NCBI GenBank assembly: GCA_014297435.1
Contig: JACOQA010000004.1
Location: 30,043-94,042, forward strand
DNA: 64,000 nucleotides
Reading direction: 5' to 3'
Source: Candidatus Nanohaloarchaea archaeon
GTDB lineage: Archaea; Nanohalarchaeota; Nanosalinia; Nanosalinales; Nanosalinaceae
Each line of letters begins with the position of its first letter. Within the stretch, counting starts at the first letter, position 1. Below are positions 40,958 through 45,376 of this stretch, piece after piece. The notes under the pieces were generated by a model. The model worked only from the letters and a program-made list of their open reading frames with translations, was not told the DNA's origin and made no database searches. The position numbers and the translations under genes are program-made.

Positions 40958-41356
40958 TCAAGAGCCATCTCTAATAATGATAACTGCCAAGAAAATTGTT
41001 GATATCAGACCCAGGAAAGGTCTGAGTGGCTCTATATAAGCCAGTATAGTTGAACTGGAGAGAAGAGCTAGTAAAACTATATTACATACCGGGCATCCGA
41101 ATGCAAGAAAACCTGTAACTCCTCCTAATGCAGCAAATCTTTTATCCAGTGTACTACATTTTTCCTGCCCGAAGTATACTGCTGCAAGCACAGAAGTTGT
41201 CAAAAGAAAGAAATAATCAAGAAGAGTAATAGGAACCATTCTAACGTAGAGCGGATTTGGGATTAATCCAGTAGTTAGACCTGTAGATAGGAAAAAGACA
41301 ATACCGGCAATTAAACCCGTCAAAAGATTGAATTCATCGATGATTTCTAGATCCAT
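40958..41356 (-). CDS. Integral membrane protein with intramembrane CPVC motif (paralogous module to the C-terminus of 41367..41897)
   Basis: Four hydrophobic segments. GFLAFGCPVCNIVLLALL lies within a TM segment. An extra Cys occurs in EKCST. Confidence 0.5.
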   Translation of the reverse strand: MDLEIIDEFNLLTGLIAGIVFFLSTGLTTGLIPNPLYVRMVPITLLDYFFLLTTSVLAAVYFGQEKCSTLDKRFAALGGVTGFLAFGCPVCNIVLLALLSSSTILAYIEPLRPFLGLISTIFLAVIIIRDGS

Positions 41357-41366
41357 AATCTCTAAC

Positions 41367-41897
41367 CTAGATGCTACAGGTTTCAGGGTTTCCAGTCCTA
41401 GTTATAAGAACTACCAGCAGCAACACGCCACCCAACCTTAGCAGGTTACCTCCGAACGGCATCGAGGCAAGAACACCGCCGAAACCGAGGAGCGACATCA
41501 CCCCTACCCCGCATGAGGCGCATCCGCCCGCAATAAAACCGGGTATAGCACCCAGGCTGCTGAGATCTACTCGGTTCATTTTCAATTGAATTACTGTGTT
41601 TGTCATCGTTACACCGACAAGTACTGAGAAACTCGCGGTCAGCATTAATCCTGCATATCCTGTGTTCATTATCAAGCCGGTTAGACGGGTTGTGAAGGCG
41701 ATACCCCAGTACTGAATCCCGGAAGAAAGCATCTGAACCGAGTAAGCCGGATTAGCGGAAAAAATACTGAATAGAAAGGTGGCTAGAGCCACTGTTAAAG
41801 TGGCAAATGCCCTCTTTTTATCAGCCACCGCTCCTTTCAAACCCTGGAAAAGTTGCCTCCTCCAGTCAGCCGGATTTATCTTTATCGCGAAACCCAT
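41367..41897 (-). CDS. Integral membrane protein with intramembrane CASC motif
   Basis: Five to six hydrophobic segments. GFIAGGCASCGVGVMSLLGFGG. A terminal Cys occurs in PETCSI. It is separated by 4 and 10 nt from the flanking genes on the same strand. Confidence 0.5.
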   Translation of the reverse strand: MGFAIKINPADWRRQLFQGLKGAVADKKRAFATLTVALATFLFSIFSANPAYSVQMLSSGIQYWGIAFTTRLTGLIMNTGYAGLMLTASFSVLVGVTMTNTVIQLKMNRVDLSSLGAIPGFIAGGCASCGVGVMSLLGFGGVLASMPFGGNLLRLGGVLLLVVLITRTGNPETCSI

Positions 41898-41901
41898 GTT
41901 A

Positions 41902-42723
41902 TCACTTCATCCACTGGTCTCTTCTCTCAAACAGCTCGTCGTGGTAATCCCAGTAACTGTCCTGCTCATGTTCGTAGACACAGTTGGCTGCCTGATGTGC
42001 CATCGGTCCGTTCGGATGTAGCTGTGGAACCGGATAGTCCTTCGAGATAAGCTTGACCTTGCCTGTATCTACATACTTGCTTTCTAGGTTGCTTGCGATA
42101 TTCATCTGGTCGATAGGGGTTCTTGATGAAGCATCAATCCCCTGCCATTCCGCGCAGAACGGACATCCGAACTCGTTGTATTCTACGACTTTTATTGAAG
42201 CATTCTCACTTCCTTTGCTTGGTTCTCCCTCTAACTCGATGCCCTCAAGACTGGTCAGATTTCCAGGTTTGTCGCTTTCTACTTTGTTTATGGCTTGATC
42301 GAATCTTGAAAGTGGCTGTGCGCCAGTAATTTTCACGAATCCTTTTTCCCTGTTTCCTACGAAGAATGTTGGTGTTCCGAAGCTCCCGATGTTTTGAACC
42401 GCTTTATTTCTGTCCTCTATAGCTTCCTGGTTGTCTGAGTTTTTGTAGCACTGCATAACTTGATCTGTATCAAGCTCAAGATCGTTGGAGATTTGCGTGA
42501 AAACCTCTTCAGGGCTCTGACTATCAGCGTTGCCGCTTGAACCATCTGATTTATCTGAACCTATGTCCGTGTTTCCCTGTGGAGAGTTAGTTCCCTGTTG
42601 GGATGAAACACTCATGGTTCCTGCTGCGAATCCCCCTAAACCGCCAAGAACTAATCCCAGTACTAGAGAGGTTATGACTGCTTGGCGCGTGGTAAATTCC
42701 AGAGTTATATCATCTTCACTCAT
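41902..42723 (-). CDS. Membrane-anchored DsbA/BdbD-like thiol:disulfide oxidoreductase with apparently circularly permuted domain order
   Basis: N-terminal TM segment and S/G/Q-rich linker. The cis-Pro loop FGTPTFFVGN (nt ~42358..42378) precedes the active site FGCPFCAEW (CPFC at 42154..42165). The helical insert ...SYWDYHDELFERRDQW ends the protein. Confidence 0.7.
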   Translation of the reverse strand: MSEDDITLEFTTRQAVITSLVLGLVLGGLGGFAAGTMSVSSQQGTNSPQGNTDIGSDKSDGSSGNADSQSPEEVFTQISNDLELDTDQVMQCYKNSDNQEAIEDRNKAVQNIGSFGTPTFFVGNREKGFVKITGAQPLSRFDQAINKVESDKPGNLTSLEGIELEGEPSKGSENASIKVVEYNEFGCPFCAEWQGIDASSRTPIDQMNIASNLESKYVDTGKVKLISKDYPVPQLHPNGPMAHQAANCVYEHEQDSYWDYHDELFERRDQWMK

Positions 42724-42872
42724 TTTGAACCACCGGTATTCACTACATATGGTTTTGAAATAGCTTCTCTGAACTCGATCAGAAGATCTGGTATCATATC
42801 GATACTAGATATCCGAACGATATTAAAGGCCAAAGTGTAGTTGGTGATACATGGTTTCGAGGTCGATACACT

Positions 42873-43247
42873 ATGTCTAAAAACCAGGGTAGAATCCCGG
42901 TCTGGTGCAAGACAGAGGAATGGTGCGCACTCAAATCCACATCCAAGATCCTGGGTCACAAATGGGTTCCGGCCATAATATACCACCTTCACGACAATGA
43001 AGGTCTAAGGTTCTCACAGATACAGGAAGAGGTTGGGGGAATCACCAACAAAACCTTGAGCGACAACCTCGACAGGATGCAGGACCAAGGAATAGTAAAC
43101 AGAGAAGTGGAAAACGAGAAGCCGGTTAAGATAACTTATGAGTTGACTGAGTTTGGTGAAAAACTAGTACCTCTCATCGAGGAAATGATCTCATGGGGTC
43201 AGGACAACCTCAGAGAGGGCGAGAAAGAAGAAGCCTGGGTAAAATGA
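42873..43247 (+). CDS. HxlR (DUF24/MarR-like) family winged-helix transcriptional regulator
   Basis: CALKSTSKILGHKWVPAIIYHL...LRFSQIQEEVGGITNKTLSDNLDRMQDQGIVNREV...ITYELTEFG is the HxlR signature, including the N-terminal Cys. Confidence 0.8.
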   Translation: MSKNQGRIPVWCKTEEWCALKSTSKILGHKWVPAIIYHLHDNEGLRFSQIQEEVGGITNKTLSDNLDRMQDQGIVNREVENEKPVKITYELTEFGEKLVPLIEEMISWGQDNLREGEKEEAWVK

Positions 43248-43296: not shown

Positions 43297-43539
43297 TTGT
43301 ATTTTGTCTTTATGGAAGAAAACGTAGGAGATACCGACAGCTTGGTCAGAATTGTAGTTGGAGCGGTTGCAGGTCTACTATCATTAGGAATACTGGCGGA
43401 CGTACTGCCAGCAAGTATGAACCTACCGGAGATCGCATCACCGATACTAGGAATCATAGCAATCGCACTACTTGCCACAGGATTCACCAGCAAATGTGGG
43501 CTTTACTCCGCTCTCGGTATCAACACCAGCGAAAAATAA
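43297..43539 (+). CDS. DUF2892 (YgaP-like) small membrane protein
   Basis: LVRIVVGAVAGLLSLGIL...TGFTSKCGLYSALGINT matches the DUF2892 pattern ending in C-x-x-Y-x-x-x-G-I. An alternative start is MEENVGD. Confidence 0.55.
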   Translation: MYFVFMEENVGDTDSLVRIVVGAVAGLLSLGILADVLPASMNLPEIASPILGIIAIALLATGFTSKCGLYSALGINTSEK

Positions 43540-43631: not shown

Positions 43632-43889
43632 ATGTCTAAGAAACTTCTGAAAATGGAGAAACGGATGTCCAGAGAGGAGATCTCTGAAAAGCTTTCAAGA
43701 ATTGCCGAGGGAGTTGAAAATGGAGAAGTGAAACTTTCCTCAGGAAACGATTCAGTGAATCTGCATCCTGGAGAGAATCCTGAGTTCGAACTCGAAGTTG
43801 AGGAGGAGAATGACGGTGATATCTCACTTGAGATAGAGATAGAATGGAATCCGGAAAAAGAAAAAAGGGAAGATATTGAGATAGGCTAG
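43632..43889 (+). CDS. Amphi-Trp domain protein
   Basis: SREEISEKLSRIAEGVENGEVKLSSGNDSVNLHPGENPEFELEVEEEN...LEIEIEW fits the amphi-Trp family pattern and size. Confidence 0.55.
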   Translation: MSKKLLKMEKRMSREEISEKLSRIAEGVENGEVKLSSGNDSVNLHPGENPEFELEVEEENDGDISLEIEIEWNPEKEKREDIEIG

Positions 43890-43898
43890 TGGAGAGCT

Positions 43899-44084
43899 CT
43901 AATCCAATAATCTATCATATATTTTCTCAGGCGGGCAGAAACCTGTAAATGAACTCTGCAACAGGTTGAAACCTGCGAACGCATCAATAAGGTAAAAGTA
44001 ATCGTTCACGAACCATCCAAGCAGGAAACCTGCCAGGATTACTGTTCCTGCCAGTCTTCTGACGAACTGTTTTTTCTGCATCAT
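43899..44084 (-). CDS. DUF2892 (YgaP-like) small membrane protein
   Basis: RRLAGTVILAGFLLGW...FAGFNLLQSSFTGFCPPEKIY. A 4-nt overlap with the upstream gene suggests co-translation with the exporter operon. Confidence 0.6.
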   Translation of the reverse strand: MMQKKQFVRRLAGTVILAGFLLGWFVNDYFYLIDAFAGFNLLQSSFTGFCPPEKIYDRLLD

Positions 44085-45376
44085 TCTTCACCTCCAGAAT
44101 TCTCTTCTACAGGTTTTCGAAATCTATACTGGTAAACCGAGCCCAGAACGAGCAAAAGCGTTGCCAGCACGCCTACATAGATAAGTGGAGACTGTGTCCT
44201 TCCTGTGAGTTCTAGATCTGTTTCTTCGGTAAATGTATAAACCGAGTTATCTCCTTCCTCACTATCACCGTTAGCTCTGAGCTGTATCTTGATCTGGTGA
44301 GTTTTCAGGTTGGCTGATCTATCAGCAGAGATCTTCAACACAGCTTCTCCTGTATCTCCAGTCTCTATCCCACCTATGTAGTTTGAGCGGTCTTCCAGAC
44401 TGAAGGGCTGGGTTCTTTCCGCGATCATTCTTACAGTTACCGACTCTGCATCCTGTCCTCCTACGTTCTCCACCTGAAGATGAAGTTGTTCTGTTCCCCC
44501 GGCTTTCATTCCTTTCTCTGCATTAACCAGCTCGAGATCAGGTCTGCCTTCAACCCTCAAAGGCACCTCAAGTTTCTTCGAGTACCTGTTGCCAGAAGTG
44601 TCCTCGTAAGTTGTCTTCAACCCAATCTGATGTAGTCCAGCCGAAAGATCCTCATCAAGATCCATTACTAGTGTTCTCTCCGTTGACTCTCCTTCACCCA
44701 ATCTGTTGATGTAGAACTTCTCATCCTTCGAATAGGCTGGTGCGATTCCCTCCGGCGTCTCCGGTCTAATCTCTACCTTTTCGATAGGTTTGTTCCCTGT
44801 GTTTGTGTATCTGATATGTGTTTCAACGTAGTCATCTCCTGGTCTTGGAGTTTTGGGGTCGGTCTTGACGACATTGCTTGAAATGTCGACTCCTTCATTA
44901 TCGACAGGCATGGAGAACTCTCTAATCACTCTAACGTTTGATTTTCCGTTCTGTGTGTTGATCTCTATGGGTTCACCGTTCTCCAAGTACTGGATATGTA
45001 GTTCGAAATCGTACATACCTGTTGGAGCACCAGAATCTATTTTTACCTGGTAGCGTTGATTCCAGACGGCTTCAGGATAGAGGAATCCGATAGAATCGTC
45101 TCTGTCATCCTCTATCGTGACGTGCTCTCTTGCCAGACGGTTATCCGGTTTGAGAACCACTTTCAGCTTTCTATCCTCATCCCAGTTTTTACCAGGATAG
45201 TTGTTTTCATGCATGTTGGCAGAGATGTTTACTCTGTCTCCTGCAGAAATGAATCCGGGATCGAAGCTTACTCCATCGAGTTTTGGAGCTCCTGAAGCAG
45301 CGCCTATAGAGATTGCGGCTATTGAAATTGTGATTGCAAGTTTGAAAGTTGTCGTGTGTGTAGTTGTGTTTGTCAT
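44081..45376 (-). CDS. Secreted COG1361-type (S-layer-domain/CARDB-like) protein with C-terminal TM anchor
   Basis: Signal-like N-terminus, beta-rich repeats and a C-terminal IYVGVLATLLLVLGSVYQY TM segment. It sits immediately downstream of the MMPL genes, a known pairing in archaea. Confidence 0.6.
   Translation of the reverse strand: MTNTTTHTTTFKLAITISIAAISIGAASGAPKLDGVSFDPGFISAGDRVNISANMHENNYPGKNWDEDRKLKVVLKPDNRLAREHVTIEDDRDDSIGFLYPEAVWNQRYQVKIDSGAPTGMYDFELHIQYLENGEPIEINTQNGKSNVRVIREFSMPVDNEGVDISSNVVKTDPKTPRPGDDYVETHIRYTNTGNKPIEKVEIRPETPEGIAPAYSKDEKFYINRLGEGESTERTLVMDLDEDLSAGLHQIGLKTTYEDTSGNRYSKKLEVPLRVEGRPDLELVNAEKGMKAGGTEQLHLQVENVGGQDAESVTVRMIAERTQPFSLEDRSNYIGGIETGDTGEAVLKISADRSANLKTHQIKIQLRANGDSEEGDNSVYTFTEETDLELTGRTQSPLIYVGVLATLLLVLGSVYQYRFRKPVEENSGGEE

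What the first reader, a model, noticed from the sequence alone, without database searches (positions are those of the whole stretch)
41902..42723. DsbA/BdbD-like oxidoreductase with apparently circularly permuted thioredoxin fold
In every thioredoxin-fold or DsbA-like protein I know, the CxxC active site lies N-terminal to the helical insertion, and the cis-Pro loop (G-T/V-P-T-F) lies near the C-terminus. The order is inverted here. After an N-terminal TM anchor and a long S/G/Q/N linker comes the segment that normally ends DsbA-like domains (LELDTDQVMQCYKNSDNQEAIEDRNKAVQNIGSFGTPTFFVGN...ITGAQPLSRFDQAINKV). Then comes the segment that normally begins them (ASIKVVEYNEFGCPFCAEW...HPNGPMAHQAANCVYEHEQDSYWDYHDELFERRDQW), after which the protein stops. 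Neither half is a complete domain alone, while together they contain all elements once. That is the signature of circular permutation, for example duplication followed by trimming at both ends. An extracytoplasmic permuted DsbA has not, to my knowledge, been described.
Basis: partly seen in the sequence, partly recalled or inferred. Interest (0 to 1): 0.65.

Follow-up and report, generated by a model that had tools for sequence, protein, structure and literature searches.

The report
Naturally circularly permuted DsbA-like oxidoreductase
A membrane-tethered disulfide-bond enzyme of a nanohaloarchaeon has the two halves of its DsbA-type fold in swapped order, and near-identical unswapped versions at the same genomic spot in related genomes show the swap is real, conserved and has arisen several times.

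Summary
ORF 41902-42723 (-) encodes 273 aa: TM anchor, disordered linker, the C-terminal part of a DsbA-like domain, then the N-terminal part with CPFC, then stop.

Pfam maps residues 72-145 to DSBA positions 122-190/191 and residues 166-272 to Thioredoxin_4 positions 4-94/165. Each element occurs once.

It is not a chimera. The same order occurs in about 40 protein clusters from independent assemblies, including the complete Ca. Nanohalobium constans chromosome.

Conventional-order proteins up to 84% identical (after de-permuting) occupy the same HxlR / Dsb / membrane-CxxC-protein locus in other Nanohaloarchaeota.

AlphaFold2 gives the same helices and strands, cyclically rotated, with the same pTM (0.70 against 0.71). 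I could not run a permutation-aware superposition because no coordinates are returned.

The new termini lie in the alpha3/alpha4 loop of the helical cap. That loop is spanned by a conserved Cys pair matching the Wolbachia alpha-DsbA1 structural disulfide.

At least three to four independent permutations at this same loop occur in archaeal lineages. Tandem (DsbA)n arrays, the likely raw material, are abundant among relatives.

I found only engineered DsbA permutants in the literature. Verdict: real, a new variant of a known kind.

The parts
41902..42723 (-). Complete gene for the permuted DsbA-like protein (273 aa plus stop).
   Evidence: ORF list. Pfam Thioredoxin_4 and DSBA above cut-off. 120 listed homologues.
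42613..42723 (-). Residues 1-37: short acidic N-terminus and a single hydrophobic helix, the membrane anchor (possibly an uncleaved signal anchor).
   Evidence: Sequence AVITSLVLGLVLGGLGGFAAGTM. AF2 helix 12-37. It aligns to the anchor of conventional orthologues.
42523..42612 (-). Residues 38-67: low-complexity S/G/Q/N/D tether.
   Evidence: pLDDT below 50 for residues 37-66. Variable in length and sequence among homologues.
42274..42522 (-). Segment A, residues 68-150. It holds helices alpha4-alpha6 of the helical cap, the cis-Pro loop (T117-P118), beta4, beta5 and alpha7. This is the part that ends a normal DsbA.
   Evidence: DSBA profile 122-190/191. AF2 elements H71-81, H86-95, H99-112, E119-124, E128-133, H138-149. 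tblastn coordinates.
42370..42375 (-). T117-P118, the loop that holds the cis-proline in DsbA-family proteins.
   Evidence: Read from the sequence. Pro conserved in 154 of 154 single-domain relatives. Aligns to the GxTATP loop of Wolbachia alpha-DsbA1.
42448..42450 (-). Cys92 (helix alpha5), putative partner of Cys248 in a structural disulfide across the new chain break.
   Evidence: Invariant in the permuted clade. Aligns to Cys146 of Wolbachia alpha-DsbA1. The pair is present in 151 of 154 relatives and lost together in two.
42250..42273 (-). Residues 151-158 (SDKPGNLT): the junction that joins the ancestral C-terminus to the ancestral pre-beta1 segment.
   Evidence: Junction table. The conventional C-terminus ...TVRSE* plus the conventional ...SGTE-LVSLEGIELEGEPSKG equals the permuted ...V(R/E)SD-xPGN-L(T/V)SLEGIELEGEPSKG. 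pLDDT is about 94 here.
41905..42249 (-). Segment B, residues 159-273. It holds beta1, beta2, the CPFC active site, alpha1 (with a 12-residue lineage-specific insertion), beta3 and helices alpha2-alpha3 of the cap. This is the part that begins a normal DsbA. The protein ends here.
   Evidence: Thioredoxin_4 profile 4-94/165. BdbD 17-109. AF2 elements E169-171, E177-185, H204-218, E223-231, H239-252, H254-266, H268-272.
42154..42165 (-). C187-P-F-C190, the redox-active CxxC motif.
   Evidence: Read from the sequence. Both Cys conserved in 154 of 154 relatives.
41980..41982 (-). Cys248 (helix alpha2), partner of Cys92.
   Evidence: Invariant. Aligns to Cys97 of Wolbachia alpha-DsbA1.
41367..41897 (-). 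Co-oriented, tightly coupled downstream gene ('m176'). It encodes a polytopic membrane protein with an invariant GCASCG motif inside a hydrophobic stretch and an invariant C-terminal Cys. It is the candidate redox partner.
   Evidence: Starts 4 nt after the dsb stop. No Pfam hit. It follows the DsbA-like gene in every nanohaloarchaeal locus where the downstream DNA is present. Invariant C126, C129, C174.
40958..41356 (-). Third gene of the apparent operon ('m132'). It is a smaller membrane protein with GCPVC, weakly similar to m176 around the Cys motif.
   Evidence: 32-35% identity over 43-69 aa to m176. Present after m176 in L002, L004, L007, L010, L014 and L015.
42873..43247 (+). Divergently transcribed HxlR-family regulator with two N-terminal Cys (C12, C18). 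It is the candidate redox-responsive regulator of the operon.
   Evidence: Pfam HxlR at 86.7 bits. It is 73-87% identical and in the same position in both permuted and conventional loci.
42724..42872 (.). Divergent intergenic region with a conserved TTTAATAT box and a GTATC-N5-GATAC palindrome (42791-42805).
   Evidence: Compared by eye across the window, L003 and L004 (permuted) and L001 and L002 (conventional). No function was tested.

Best explanation
**What it is.** The gene encodes a membrane-tethered, extracytoplasmic DsbA/BdbD-type thiol-disulfide oxidoreductase. Its single catalytic domain is a natural circular permutant.

**Chain order.** The order is: anchor; flexible tether; [alpha4-alpha6 of the helical cap, cis-Pro loop, beta4, beta5, alpha7]; an 8-residue junction; [beta1, beta2, CPFC-alpha1, beta3, alpha2, alpha3]; stop.
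- The ancestral N- and C-termini, which are adjacent in DsbA folds, are fused.
- The new termini lie in the alpha3/alpha4 surface loop of the helical cap, far from the CxxC and cis-Pro active site.
- The tether now enters the domain through the cap instead of through beta1.

**Fold and chemistry.**
- The two halves pack into one DsbA-like domain (inferred from AF2).
- The active-site chemistry is unchanged: the CPFC thiol/disulfide works against the T-P loop (inferred from complete conservation).
- A conserved Cys92-Cys248 pair, equivalent to the Cys97-Cys146 structural disulfide of Wolbachia alpha-DsbA1, would bridge alpha5 and alpha2. It would therefore tie together the two chain ends on either side of the break.
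- I propose that a cut inside this disulfide-closed loop is topologically benign, and that this is why permutation recurs there (hypothesis).

**Origin.**
- The permutation arose in place, at the HxlR / dsb / m176 locus, from a conventional gene.
- Most likely the B-A unit was duplicated head to tail, one B was then lost and one A was lost (inferred from exact junction matches and from the abundance of tandem (B-A)n relatives).
- It has been kept under purifying selection through a radiation of Nanohalobium/Nanohalovita-like nanohaloarchaea.
- Equivalent events happened independently in at least two or three other archaeal lineages.

**Physiology (inferred).**
- The enzyme forms or shuffles disulfides in surface and secreted proteins.
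- It is recycled by the co-transcribed membrane CxxC protein m176 rather than by DsbB/VKOR plus quinone. The cultured relative lacks respiratory complexes.
- It is controlled by the adjacent Cys-containing HxlR regulator.
For: **Swapped HMM and PDB coordinates.** In hhalign of the permuted against the conventional family profile, the anchor and segment B align, segment A appears as an insertion, and the permuted profile ends where the conventional one continues into A.

**Order in homologues.** Of the 120 homologues listed, 42 are A-B, 75 are B-A and 2 are B-A-B-A.

**Structure prediction.**
- Permuted model: mean pLDDT 82, pTM 0.70, above 90 over most of residues 68-273 (72-73 at 191-210).
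- Conventional orthologue: pTM 0.71, with the same elements rotated.
- Foldseek, which needs sequential order, aligns the conventional model to 3F4R over 204 columns (TM 0.79, E 1.7e-11). It aligns the permuted model to the same targets over only about 105 columns (TM 0.41-0.43).

**Same locus.** HxlR (73-87% identical) and m176 (63-95% identical) flank both forms. The intergenic motifs are shared.

**Junctions.** The sequences match with no residues lost or duplicated.

**Conservation.** CxxC and the loop Pro are conserved in 154 of 154 relatives. The Cys pair is present in 151 of 154 and lost together in two.

**Independent origins.** De-permuted identity to the best conventional protein, against the best permuted protein of another group, is 84% against 56% for the main clade. 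It is 71% against 54% for P0214 and 68% against 64% for the P0228 group. Each group shares its TM anchor with its own conventional relative.

**Tandem arrays.** More than 110 of the 150 best representatives are (B-A)2-6.

**Physiology.** Ca. N. constans lacks respiratory complexes (PMC7443923).
Against: - No model coordinates or PAE were available. The packing of A against B rests on pTM, pLDDT and secondary-structure order, not on a permutation-aware superposition.
- AlphaFold2 may be biased towards known folds.
- There are no biochemical data on activity, redox potential, the Cys92-Cys248 disulfide, membrane topology or anchor cleavage.
- The role of m176 as a partner rests only on gene linkage and conserved cysteines.
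- The NJ tree of de-permuted sequences is poorly supported, so the number of events rests mainly on pairwise identities and shared anchors.
- No anchor-bearing duplication intermediate was found inside Nanohaloarchaeota.
- Two permuted proteins (P0131, P0137) lack the Cys pair, so the pair is not strictly required.
Confidence: 0.85

Rival explanations
1. Obligate domain-swapped oligomer. The A half of one chain complements the B half of another, so the polypeptide never forms a monomeric DsbA-like domain. The functional unit would be a dimer or a chain on the membrane.
For: Circular permutants and tandem-repeat relatives are prone to swapping. The A-to-B junction is short (8 residues beyond the ancestral ends). 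Monomer AF2 runs cannot exclude an intermolecular arrangement.
Against: The natural termini of DsbA are close together, and engineered E. coli DsbA permutants with the natural termini joined are active (Hennecke et al. 1999, as summarised in PMC11348275; the closeness of the termini, the short linker and the monomeric state are from my memory of the original paper). The junction region is modelled at pLDDT of about 94, and pTM equals that of the conventional monomer.
Confidence: 0.07
2. There was one ancient permuted paralogue. The high similarity between permuted and conventional genes within each lineage would then come from gene conversion or recombination between paralogues (concerted evolution), not from repeated independent permutation.
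For: All permuted groups break in the same loop. One MAG (DAL-WCL_22_57C1R) carries both a permuted gene (L009) and a conventional gene (L017), each next to an HxlR gene. Some genomes hold two dsb-m176 modules (L002). NJ support is weak.
Against: The main clade is 84% identical to conventional proteins but at most 56% identical to any other permuted group. Lineage-specific features are shared between permuted and conventional members of the same lineage: the TM anchor, the alpha7 sequence and the junction. Conversion would have to cover the anchor, A and B while sparing only the order. Permuted and conventional genes occupy the same locus in different genomes.
Confidence: 0.15
3. Artefact or decaying gene: an assembly chimera, a mis-called ORF, or the degenerate remnant of a two-domain (B-A-B-A) gene that is no longer functional.
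For: Tandem-domain relatives are common. Some A-first proteins in the databases are clearly fragments that start at a contig end (P0137, P0210, P0237).
Against: The same full-length architecture, with start codon, anchor and stop, occurs in about 40 clusters from four data sources. These include the complete Ca. N. constans chromosome and a MAG 94% identical to the window. There are 46 invariant positions, including all catalytic and structural residues, across sequences down to 43% identity. The next gene starts 4 nt after the stop. There is no second copy or leftover half in the window.
Confidence: 0.02

Closest known systems
Wolbachia pipientis alpha-DsbA1 (PDB 3F4R) and Bacillus subtilis BdbD (PDB 3EU3/3EU4)
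   Same: These are the best sequence and fold matches. They share the thioredoxin core with a helical cap, CxxC at the start of alpha1 and Thr-cisPro before beta4. With alpha-DsbA1 there is also a second Cys pair in the cap (Cys97-Cys146, equivalent to Cys248-Cys92 here).
   Different: The chain order is rotated and the termini lie in the alpha3/alpha4 loop. The protein here is tethered by an N-terminal TM helix and a roughly 30-residue acidic linker. It carries a 12-residue insertion after CPFC, shared with conventional nanohaloarchaeal orthologues. Sequence identity to these structures is only 19-27%.
Conventional-order nanohaloarchaeal DsbA-like proteins (e.g. P0035, P0036, P0042; Ca. Nanohaloarchaea M3_22 CP046106, Ca. 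Nanosalina sp. VS9-1)
   Same: Same anchor, linker and length (about 270 aa), and the same HxlR / dsb / m176 locus. They are up to 84% identical once the halves are reordered. All conserved residues are the same.
   Different: Only the order of the two halves differs. The linker is attached to beta1 instead of alpha4.
Engineered circular permutants of E. coli DsbA (Hennecke, Sebbel & Glockshuber 1999, J Mol Biol 286:1197)
   Same: They show experimentally that DsbA tolerates joined natural termini and new termini at many positions while staying active (summarised in PMC11348275; cited in PMC13552848 and PMC3281007).
   Different: Those are laboratory constructs of a periplasmic bacterial enzyme. 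Here the permutation is natural, fixed, anchored to the membrane and recurrent in archaea. I could not read the original paper, so I could not check whether the equivalent loop was among its permissive sites.
DsbB / VKOR proposed circular-permutation relationship (PMC4555120)
   Same: This is another component of the disulfide-formation pathway for which duplication and deletion leading to circular permutation has been proposed.
   Different: That case relates two very distant membrane four-helix-bundle families and is a hypothesis from structure comparison. The present case has permuted and unpermuted forms at up to 84% identity in the same locus.
Tandem multi-DsbA-domain proteins, (B-A)2 to (B-A)6 (e.g. 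P0093, P0121, P0241, and P0411 from archaeon GW2011_AR15)
   Same: Same domain family. Their internal A-to-B junctions align contiguously with the permuted profile, which is why they dominate the representative search.
   Different: They contain complete domains in conventional order. The ones I inspected by eye (P0093, P0121, P0123, P0125) are bacterial lipoproteins. None was found in Nanohaloarchaeota.

Membership tests
DsbA-like thioredoxin-fold oxidoreductases (Pfam PF13462 Thioredoxin_4 / PF01323 DSBA) | Profile match above the curated threshold. | tested here: met
   Thioredoxin_4 at 70.1 bits (cut-off 23.2). DSBA at 39 bits (cut-off 25.6).
DsbA-like thioredoxin-fold oxidoreductases (Pfam PF13462 Thioredoxin_4 / PF01323 DSBA) | CxxC redox motif after the central beta-strand, at the start of helix alpha1. 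| tested here: met
   C187-P-F-C190 follows strand E177-185. Conserved in 154 of 154 relatives.
DsbA-like thioredoxin-fold oxidoreductases (Pfam PF13462 Thioredoxin_4 / PF01323 DSBA) | Pro of the cis-Pro loop immediately before beta4. | tested here: met
   T117-P118 precede E119-124. Conserved in 154 of 154. The cis conformation itself cannot be read from the outputs.
DsbA-like thioredoxin-fold oxidoreductases (Pfam PF13462 Thioredoxin_4 / PF01323 DSBA) | Helical cap domain inserted between beta3 and the cis-Pro loop. | tested here: met
   All cap helices are present: alpha2, alpha3 and a short helix at 239-272, and alpha4-alpha6 at 71-112. The cap is split by the new termini.
DsbA-like thioredoxin-fold oxidoreductases (Pfam PF13462 Thioredoxin_4 / PF01323 DSBA) | Canonical order of elements along the chain (beta1 ... 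CxxC ... cap ... cis-Pro ... alpha7). | tested here: not met
   The order is rotated. This is the finding itself. The protein is a member by homology but not by topology.
DsbA-like thioredoxin-fold oxidoreductases (Pfam PF13462 Thioredoxin_4 / PF01323 DSBA) | Three-dimensional superposition on a solved DsbA. | tested here: inconclusive
   Sequential Foldseek aligns only half the domain (about 105 columns, TM 0.41-0.43). The conventional orthologue aligns over 204 columns with TM 0.79. A permutation-aware aligner could not be run because no coordinates were available.
DsbA-like thioredoxin-fold oxidoreductases (Pfam PF13462 Thioredoxin_4 / PF01323 DSBA) | Thiol-disulfide oxidoreductase activity and an oxidising redox potential. 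| not testable with these tools
   This needs biochemistry.
DsbA-DsbB / DsbA-VKOR oxidative folding systems | A DsbB- or VKOR-family quinone-linked reoxidant. | tested here: inconclusive
   The adjacent membrane proteins m176 and m132 match no Pfam family at E up to 0.1. The rest of the genome was not scanned. The cultured relative lacks respiratory complexes (PMC7443923).
Natural circular permutants | Every structural element present exactly once, in cyclically rotated order relative to homologues. | tested here: met
Natural circular permutants | Ancestral termini joined and new termini created elsewhere, with no loss or duplication of sequence. | tested here: met
   Junction table. ...TVRS(E/D) is joined to ...(S/P)G(x)(E/N)-L(V/T)SLEG. 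The new C-terminus ...WM(x)(G)* and the new N-side ...(S/T)PEE(V/T)F correspond to the conventional ...WMxSG-xGxxxETF.
Natural circular permutants | Same overall fold retained. | tested here: inconclusive
   Supported by pTM 0.70 against 0.71 and by identical element sets. Not verified by superposition or experiment.

The most novel reading that the evidence does not exclude
The permutation is adaptive and mechanistically biased, not a neutral curiosity. Cutting inside the disulfide-closed alpha2-alpha5 loop is uniquely tolerated. Moving the membrane tether from beta1 to the helical cap re-orients the catalytic face relative to the membrane. That would tune the interaction with the novel membrane CxxC partner (m176) or with surface-protein substrates. 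It also reverses the order in which the halves emerge from the translocon, so the CxxC emerges last, which changes the oxidative folding of the enzyme itself. Repeated independent fixation at one loop in several DPANN-type and other archaeal lineages would then be convergent evolution of protein topology.
Probability: 0.2. Interest if true: 0.8.

Novelty: new variant of a known kind. Interest (0 to 1): 0.62.

Why it matters
Natural circular permutations are usually inferred between distant homologues, long after the event. Here the permuted and unpermuted forms are up to 84% identical. They share the anchor, promoter region and neighbouring genes. The junctions can be read residue by residue, and the same rearrangement has happened several times at the same loop.

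That makes this a clean natural system for three questions:
- How are permutations generated and fixed?
- What makes a site permissive? The disulfide-bridged loop idea is directly testable.
- Does chain order matter for a secreted redox enzyme that folds as it leaves the translocon?

It also matters for annotation. Sequential tools (Foldseek, BLAST coverage, single-domain HMM envelopes) see only half of such proteins.

Finally, the analysis exposes a conserved, uncharacterised membrane CxxC protein. It is a candidate for a non-DsbB, non-VKOR recycling partner in organisms without respiratory chains.

Tried and rejected
- **Permutation-aware superposition.** It was not possible. Structure prediction returns no coordinates and nothing appears in /data. 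I used the pTM argument and element order instead.
- **Foldseek against PDB.** It aligns only half of the permuted model, as expected for a sequential aligner. I used it as a contrast with the conventional model, not as proof.
- **NJ trees with bootstrap on de-permuted sequences.** The first script timed out. The faster version gave weak support: the main clade was not recovered as strictly monophyletic, and 85+86 grouped with 88+91 in 52% of replicates. I therefore did not base the count of events on tree topology. I used pairwise identities and shared anchors instead.
- **Search for a second DsbA-like copy or a leftover half in the window.** None was found.
- **Search for anchor-bearing intermediates (A-B-A or B-A-B-A) in Nanohaloarchaeota.** None appeared among the listed hits. 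The tandem arrays I inspected by eye are bacterial lipoproteins, and one named two-domain hit comes from archaeon GW2011_AR15. The A-first multi-domain hits P0210 and P0237 look like N-terminally truncated gene calls. P0448, P0454 and P0502 have the same architecture but their sequences were not examined.
- **Pfam on m176 and m132.** No family matched. The homologue search returned only hypothetical proteins.
- **Hennecke et al. 1999.** The paper could not be read. Its results are quoted only as summarised by PMC11348275.
- **NCBIfam.** It gave only a sub-threshold partial hit to a selenolipoprotein family (73.7 bits against a cut-off of 190), which I disregarded.
- **Taxonomy of the non-halophilic permuted proteins (P0228, P0260).** It could not be established. 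Only their nearest named relatives are known.
Full report
**1. The observation**

Its stop codon is followed 4 nt later by the start of the next gene on the same strand. Nothing is missing downstream.

Pfam-A gives two hits above threshold, and they map in swapped order:
- Thioredoxin_4: residues 166-272 match profile positions 4-94 of 165.
- DSBA: residues 72-145 match profile positions 122-190 of 191.

phmmer against PDB sequences shows the same. Residues 163-269 align to BdbD 17-109. For Wolbachia alpha-DsbA1, residues 146-271 align to 9-118 and residues 84-131 align to 138-187.

Each half occurs once in the 64 kb window. The CPFC motif, the T-P loop, the hydrophobic N-terminal helix and the low-complexity linker are all as described.

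**2. Not an artefact: a conserved family, with unpermuted twins**

A search of 5.8 billion proteins returned 181 homologues, of which 120 are listed. The named ones are from Nanohaloarchaeota: Ca. Nanohalobium constans at 75% and Ca. Nanohalovita haloferacivicina at 61%.

I split the query into its two halves. Segment A is residues 68-150, the part that normally ends the domain. Segment B is residues 159-273, the CxxC half. I then located both halves in every listed hit:
- 42 proteins have the order A-B, like the query.
- 75 have the conventional order B-A.
- 2 are tandem B-A-B-A.

The permuted proteins come from NCBI, JGI, ENA and Logan assemblies. They include the complete 973 kb Ca. N. constans chromosome. 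A GTDB species genome is 94% identical to the window gene (L004).

Across the 42 permuted sequences, which go down to 43% identity, 46 columns are invariant. These include G-C-P-x-C, G-T-P and two further cysteines. This is a gene under purifying selection, not a chimera or a decaying remnant.

**3. Same locus in both forms**

In the window the gene is flanked upstream by a divergently transcribed HxlR-family regulator. Downstream lie two small membrane proteins with CxxC motifs, called m176 and m132 here. Neither has a Pfam match.

The same arrangement surrounds both forms:
- Permuted genes: L003-L007 and L009; in L008 only m176 was found.
- Conventional genes: L001/L013 (Nanohaloarchaea M3_22, complete genome), L002, L010 (Ca. 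Nanosalina sp. VS9-1, complete genome), L015 and L016.

HxlR is 73-87% identical across these loci and m176 is 63-95% identical.

The divergent intergenic region keeps the same TTTAATAT box and a GTATC-N5-GATAC palindrome in permuted and conventional loci.

The permuted and conventional genes are therefore positional counterparts. The rearrangement happened inside the gene, in place.

One caveat applies. A single MAG carries both a permuted and a conventional copy, each with its own HxlR gene (L009 and L017). This may be a mixed bin or a true duplication.

**4. Anatomy of the rearrangement**

Profile-profile alignment of the permuted family against the conventional family aligns the anchor and segment B. 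It leaves A as an insertion in the permuted profile. It ends where the permuted protein stops and the conventional one continues into A.

Residue-level junctions are:
- The conventional C-terminus is ...PLSRFEEAFNTVRSE*.
- The conventional segment just before beta1 is ...SGTE-LVSLEGIELEGEPSKG.
- The permuted A-to-B junction is ...PLSRFEQAF(K/E)TVRSD-(S/D)PGN-L(T/V)SLEGIELEGEPSKG. In Nanohalovita it is ...VRNSD-SGE-LTSLEG.
- The permuted C-terminus ...RRDQWM(K / AG / QG)* and the start of its A segment ...(S/T)PEE(V/T)F(R/T)QISNDL together correspond to the conventional ...RRDSWMQSG-NGNMEGTFRNISNDL.

Nothing is lost and nothing is duplicated. The old ends are joined almost directly, and the new ends fall in one short surface loop.

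**5. Structure**

AlphaFold2 was run with an alignment of permuted sequences only. It gives mean pLDDT 82 and pTM 0.70. pLDDT is above 90 over most of residues 68-273, including the junction; it falls to 72-73 at 191-210. Only the N-terminal residues 1-6 and the linker (37-66) fall below 50.

The elements of the permuted model, in order, are:
- H71-81, H86-95, H99-112, T117-P118, E119-124, E128-133, H138-149.
- Then E169-171, E177-185, CPFC, H204-218, E223-231, H239-252, H254-266, H268-272.

The conventional orthologue P0036 gives pTM 0.71 and the same elements starting from the second group.

With 273 residues, of which about 65 are disordered or form a lone TM helix, a pTM of 0.70 requires roughly 200 residues in one confidently placed body. 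If the halves were placed independently, the ceiling would be about 0.4. This is my inference from the definition of pTM.

Foldseek cannot handle permutation. It aligns the conventional model to Wolbachia alpha-DsbA1 over 204 columns (TM 0.79, E 1.7e-11). It aligns the permuted model to the same top targets over only about 105 columns (TM 0.41-0.43). That pattern is expected for a permutant. I could not run CE-CP because coordinates are not returned, so fold reconstitution is strongly supported but not demonstrated.

In DsbA terms, the break lies between alpha3 and alpha4 of the helical cap.

**6. A disulfide across the break**

Cys248 (alpha2) and Cys92 (alpha5) are invariant in the permuted clade. 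They align with Cys97 and Cys146 of Wolbachia alpha-DsbA1. The PDB entry 3F4T is named as the C97A/C146A mutant of that protein. That these two cysteines form a structural disulfide is from my memory of the literature.

Among 154 single-domain relatives of either order, both Cys are present in 151, both are absent in 2 and one is absent in 1.

In the conventional chain this pair closes a loop of about 50 residues containing alpha3 and alpha4. The new termini lie inside that loop, so the two chain ends would stay covalently tied.

I propose this as the reason the site is permissive. It is a hypothesis. Two permuted proteins (P0131, P0137) have lost the pair, so it is not indispensable.

**7. 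Recurrence**

I searched 1.84 billion cluster representatives with the permuted profile. This found 11 further A-B proteins, 19 B-A proteins and more than 110 tandem arrays, (B-A)2 to (B-A)6. A second word-indexed search added four more A-B proteins and their conventional neighbours.

After de-permuting and aligning all single-domain proteins, the comparison is as follows:

| Permuted group | Best conventional protein | Best permuted protein of another group |
|---|---|---|
| Main nanohaloarchaeal clade | 84% | 56% |
| P0214 (nearest named relatives Aenigmatarchaeota) | 71% (P0500) | 54% |
| P0228 / P0410 / P0412 | 68% (P0459) | 64% |

P0214 shares a near-identical TM anchor with P0500, and the P0228 group shares one with P0459.

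A divergent nanohaloarchaeal set also exists: P0085, P0086, P0122, P0126, P0135 and P0128 (Ca. Nanosalina sp.). It has its own junction motif. For P0085 and P0086, the two whose loci could be fetched, the context is different: MFS (or an unidentified ORF), then dsb, an m176 homologue with CSC/CGC, and peptidase M24, with no HxlR.

The permuted genes P0228 and P0214 sit in the interior of contigs. P0228 is found in two samples.

The simplest reading is at least three to four independent permutations, all in the alpha3/alpha4 loop. The alternative is one old event plus concerted evolution. That would need conversion of the anchor, A and B while preserving the order; I give it 0.15.

One bias should be noted. 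My searches used a profile with this breakpoint, so permutants with other breakpoints would be under-detected. One multi-domain protein (P0171) appears to contain a unit cut between alpha2 and alpha3.

**8. How it arose (inferred)**

The junctions are what a head-to-tail duplication of the B-A unit would give, followed by loss of the first B and the last A while keeping the anchor and the stop.

Tandem arrays show that the first step is frequent in this family. A B-A-B protein (P0202) may illustrate a partial loss.

An alternative route is to copy A in front of B and then delete the 3' A. It predicts the same junctions and cannot be excluded. No anchored intermediate was found in Nanohaloarchaeota.

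**9. How it works (inferred)**

All catalytic determinants are intact and universally conserved. I therefore expect ordinary DsbA-type thiol-disulfide exchange on the outer face of the membrane.

The cultured relative Ca. N. constans is an aerotolerant fermenter without respiratory complexes. Its authors list 'Dsb, disulfide bond formation' in their metabolic scheme without comment on topology (PMC7443923). A DsbB/VKOR-quinone route is therefore unlikely.

The tightly coupled m176 is the best candidate partner. Its properties are:
- No Pfam family.
- 119 homologues; nearly all the named ones are nanohaloarchaeal.
- Invariant C126-A-S-C129 and C174.
- It follows the dsb gene in every nanohaloarchaeal locus where the downstream DNA is present.

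The direction of electron flow is unknown.

The HxlR neighbour has two N-terminal cysteines and a conserved palindrome in the shared promoter region. This suggests redox-responsive control, which I did not test.

The one clear physical consequence of the permutation is that the tether now enters through the helical cap and the CxxC half is translocated last. Whether that matters is open.

**10. Comparison with what is known, and novelty**

By homology this is a DsbA/BdbD-family protein. By topology it fails the family's canonical element order.

Engineered circular permutants of E. coli DsbA are active at many positions (Hennecke et al. 1999, summarised in PMC11348275).

A permutation relationship has been proposed for the partner enzymes DsbB and VKOR (PMC4555120).

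Five full-text searches found no report of a natural permuted DsbA. A 2026 survey of permutations cites DsbA only for the engineered work.

I rate this a new variant of a known kind. It is real, clean and recurrent, and of clear interest for protein-evolution and folding studies. It is not a new type of biochemical system.

Noticed in passing
window 41367-41897 (-) and 40958-41356 (-): Two uncharacterised polytopic membrane proteins sit directly downstream, m176 and m132. Each has a CxxC inside a hydrophobic stretch (GGCASCG; GCPVC) plus one more Cys. Neither matches any Pfam family. The m176 family has 119 hits; nearly all the named ones are Nanohaloarchaeota and one is the haloarchaeon Halorarius halobius. 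C126, C129 and C174 are invariant. In a divergent paralogous module the motif is CSC/CGC. It may be a non-DsbB, non-VKOR partner of the DsbA-like protein.
   Followed up: partly
window 42873-43247 (+) and intergenic 42724-42872: An HxlR-family regulator with Cys12 and Cys18 is transcribed divergently from the dsb operon. The intergenic region has a TTTAATAT box (42820-42827 on the + strand as ATATTAAA) and a GTATC-N5-GATAC palindrome (42791-42805). Both are conserved in permuted and conventional loci of other genomes.
   Followed up: partly
proteins P0121-P0267 and P0391-P0506 (representative and homologue searches): Very many relatives are tandem arrays of 2 to 6 complete DsbA-like domains, up to 1196 aa (P0241). 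The ones inspected by eye are bacterial lipoproteins. A named two-domain form also occurs in a DPANN-type archaeon (GW2011_AR15, P0411).
   Followed up: partly
protein P0171 (779 aa, NCBI contig of 17.6 kb): This multi-domain protein has the architecture A-B-B-A. Its first DsbA-like unit seems to start in helix alpha3 and end after alpha2, which is a different breakpoint. It is flanked by repeats of an unrelated beta-rich domain, and its second unit is conventional and nearly identical in sequence.
   Followed up: no
protein P0202 (427 aa): This protein has the order B-A-B. The last half-domain is replaced by a hydrophobic C-terminal tail. It may be a partial-loss intermediate of a two-domain protein, or a frameshifted gene.
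   Followed up: no
proteins P0085, P0088-P0090, P0122, P0126, P0127: Some nanohaloarchaeal homologues, both permuted and conventional, carry a cytoplasmic N-terminal extension ahead of the TM anchor. In the sequences examined (P0085, P0122, P0126, P0127) it has a C2H2 zinc-finger-like pattern (C-x2-C ... H-x3-5-H). In P0088-P0090 only the CxxC at residue 7 was seen.
   Followed up: no
window residues 191-203 of the protein (about 42115-42153): There is a 12-residue insertion right after CPFC (EWQGIDASSRTPID...), with invariant E192, W193, G195, D197 and A198. It is absent from BdbD and shared by permuted and conventional nanohaloarchaeal proteins. pLDDT is lower there (72-73).
   Followed up: no
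L009 and L017 (MAG DAL-WCL_22_57C1R); L011: One MAG holds both a permuted and a conventional dsb gene, each next to an HxlR gene; this is either a mixed bin or a true duplication. Separately, a contig binned as 'Salinivirgaceae bacterium' (L011) carries a typical nanohaloarchaeal conventional dsb gene, which is probably a binning error.
   Followed up: no
window 43297-43539 (+), 43899-44084 (-), 43632-43889 (+), 44081-45376 (-): Near the locus are two YgaP-like small TM proteins, an Amphi-Trp domain protein and a 431-aa CARDB/NPCBM_assoc-like surface protein. Similar neighbours recur around the dsb locus in Ca. N. constans (L003).
   Followed up: no
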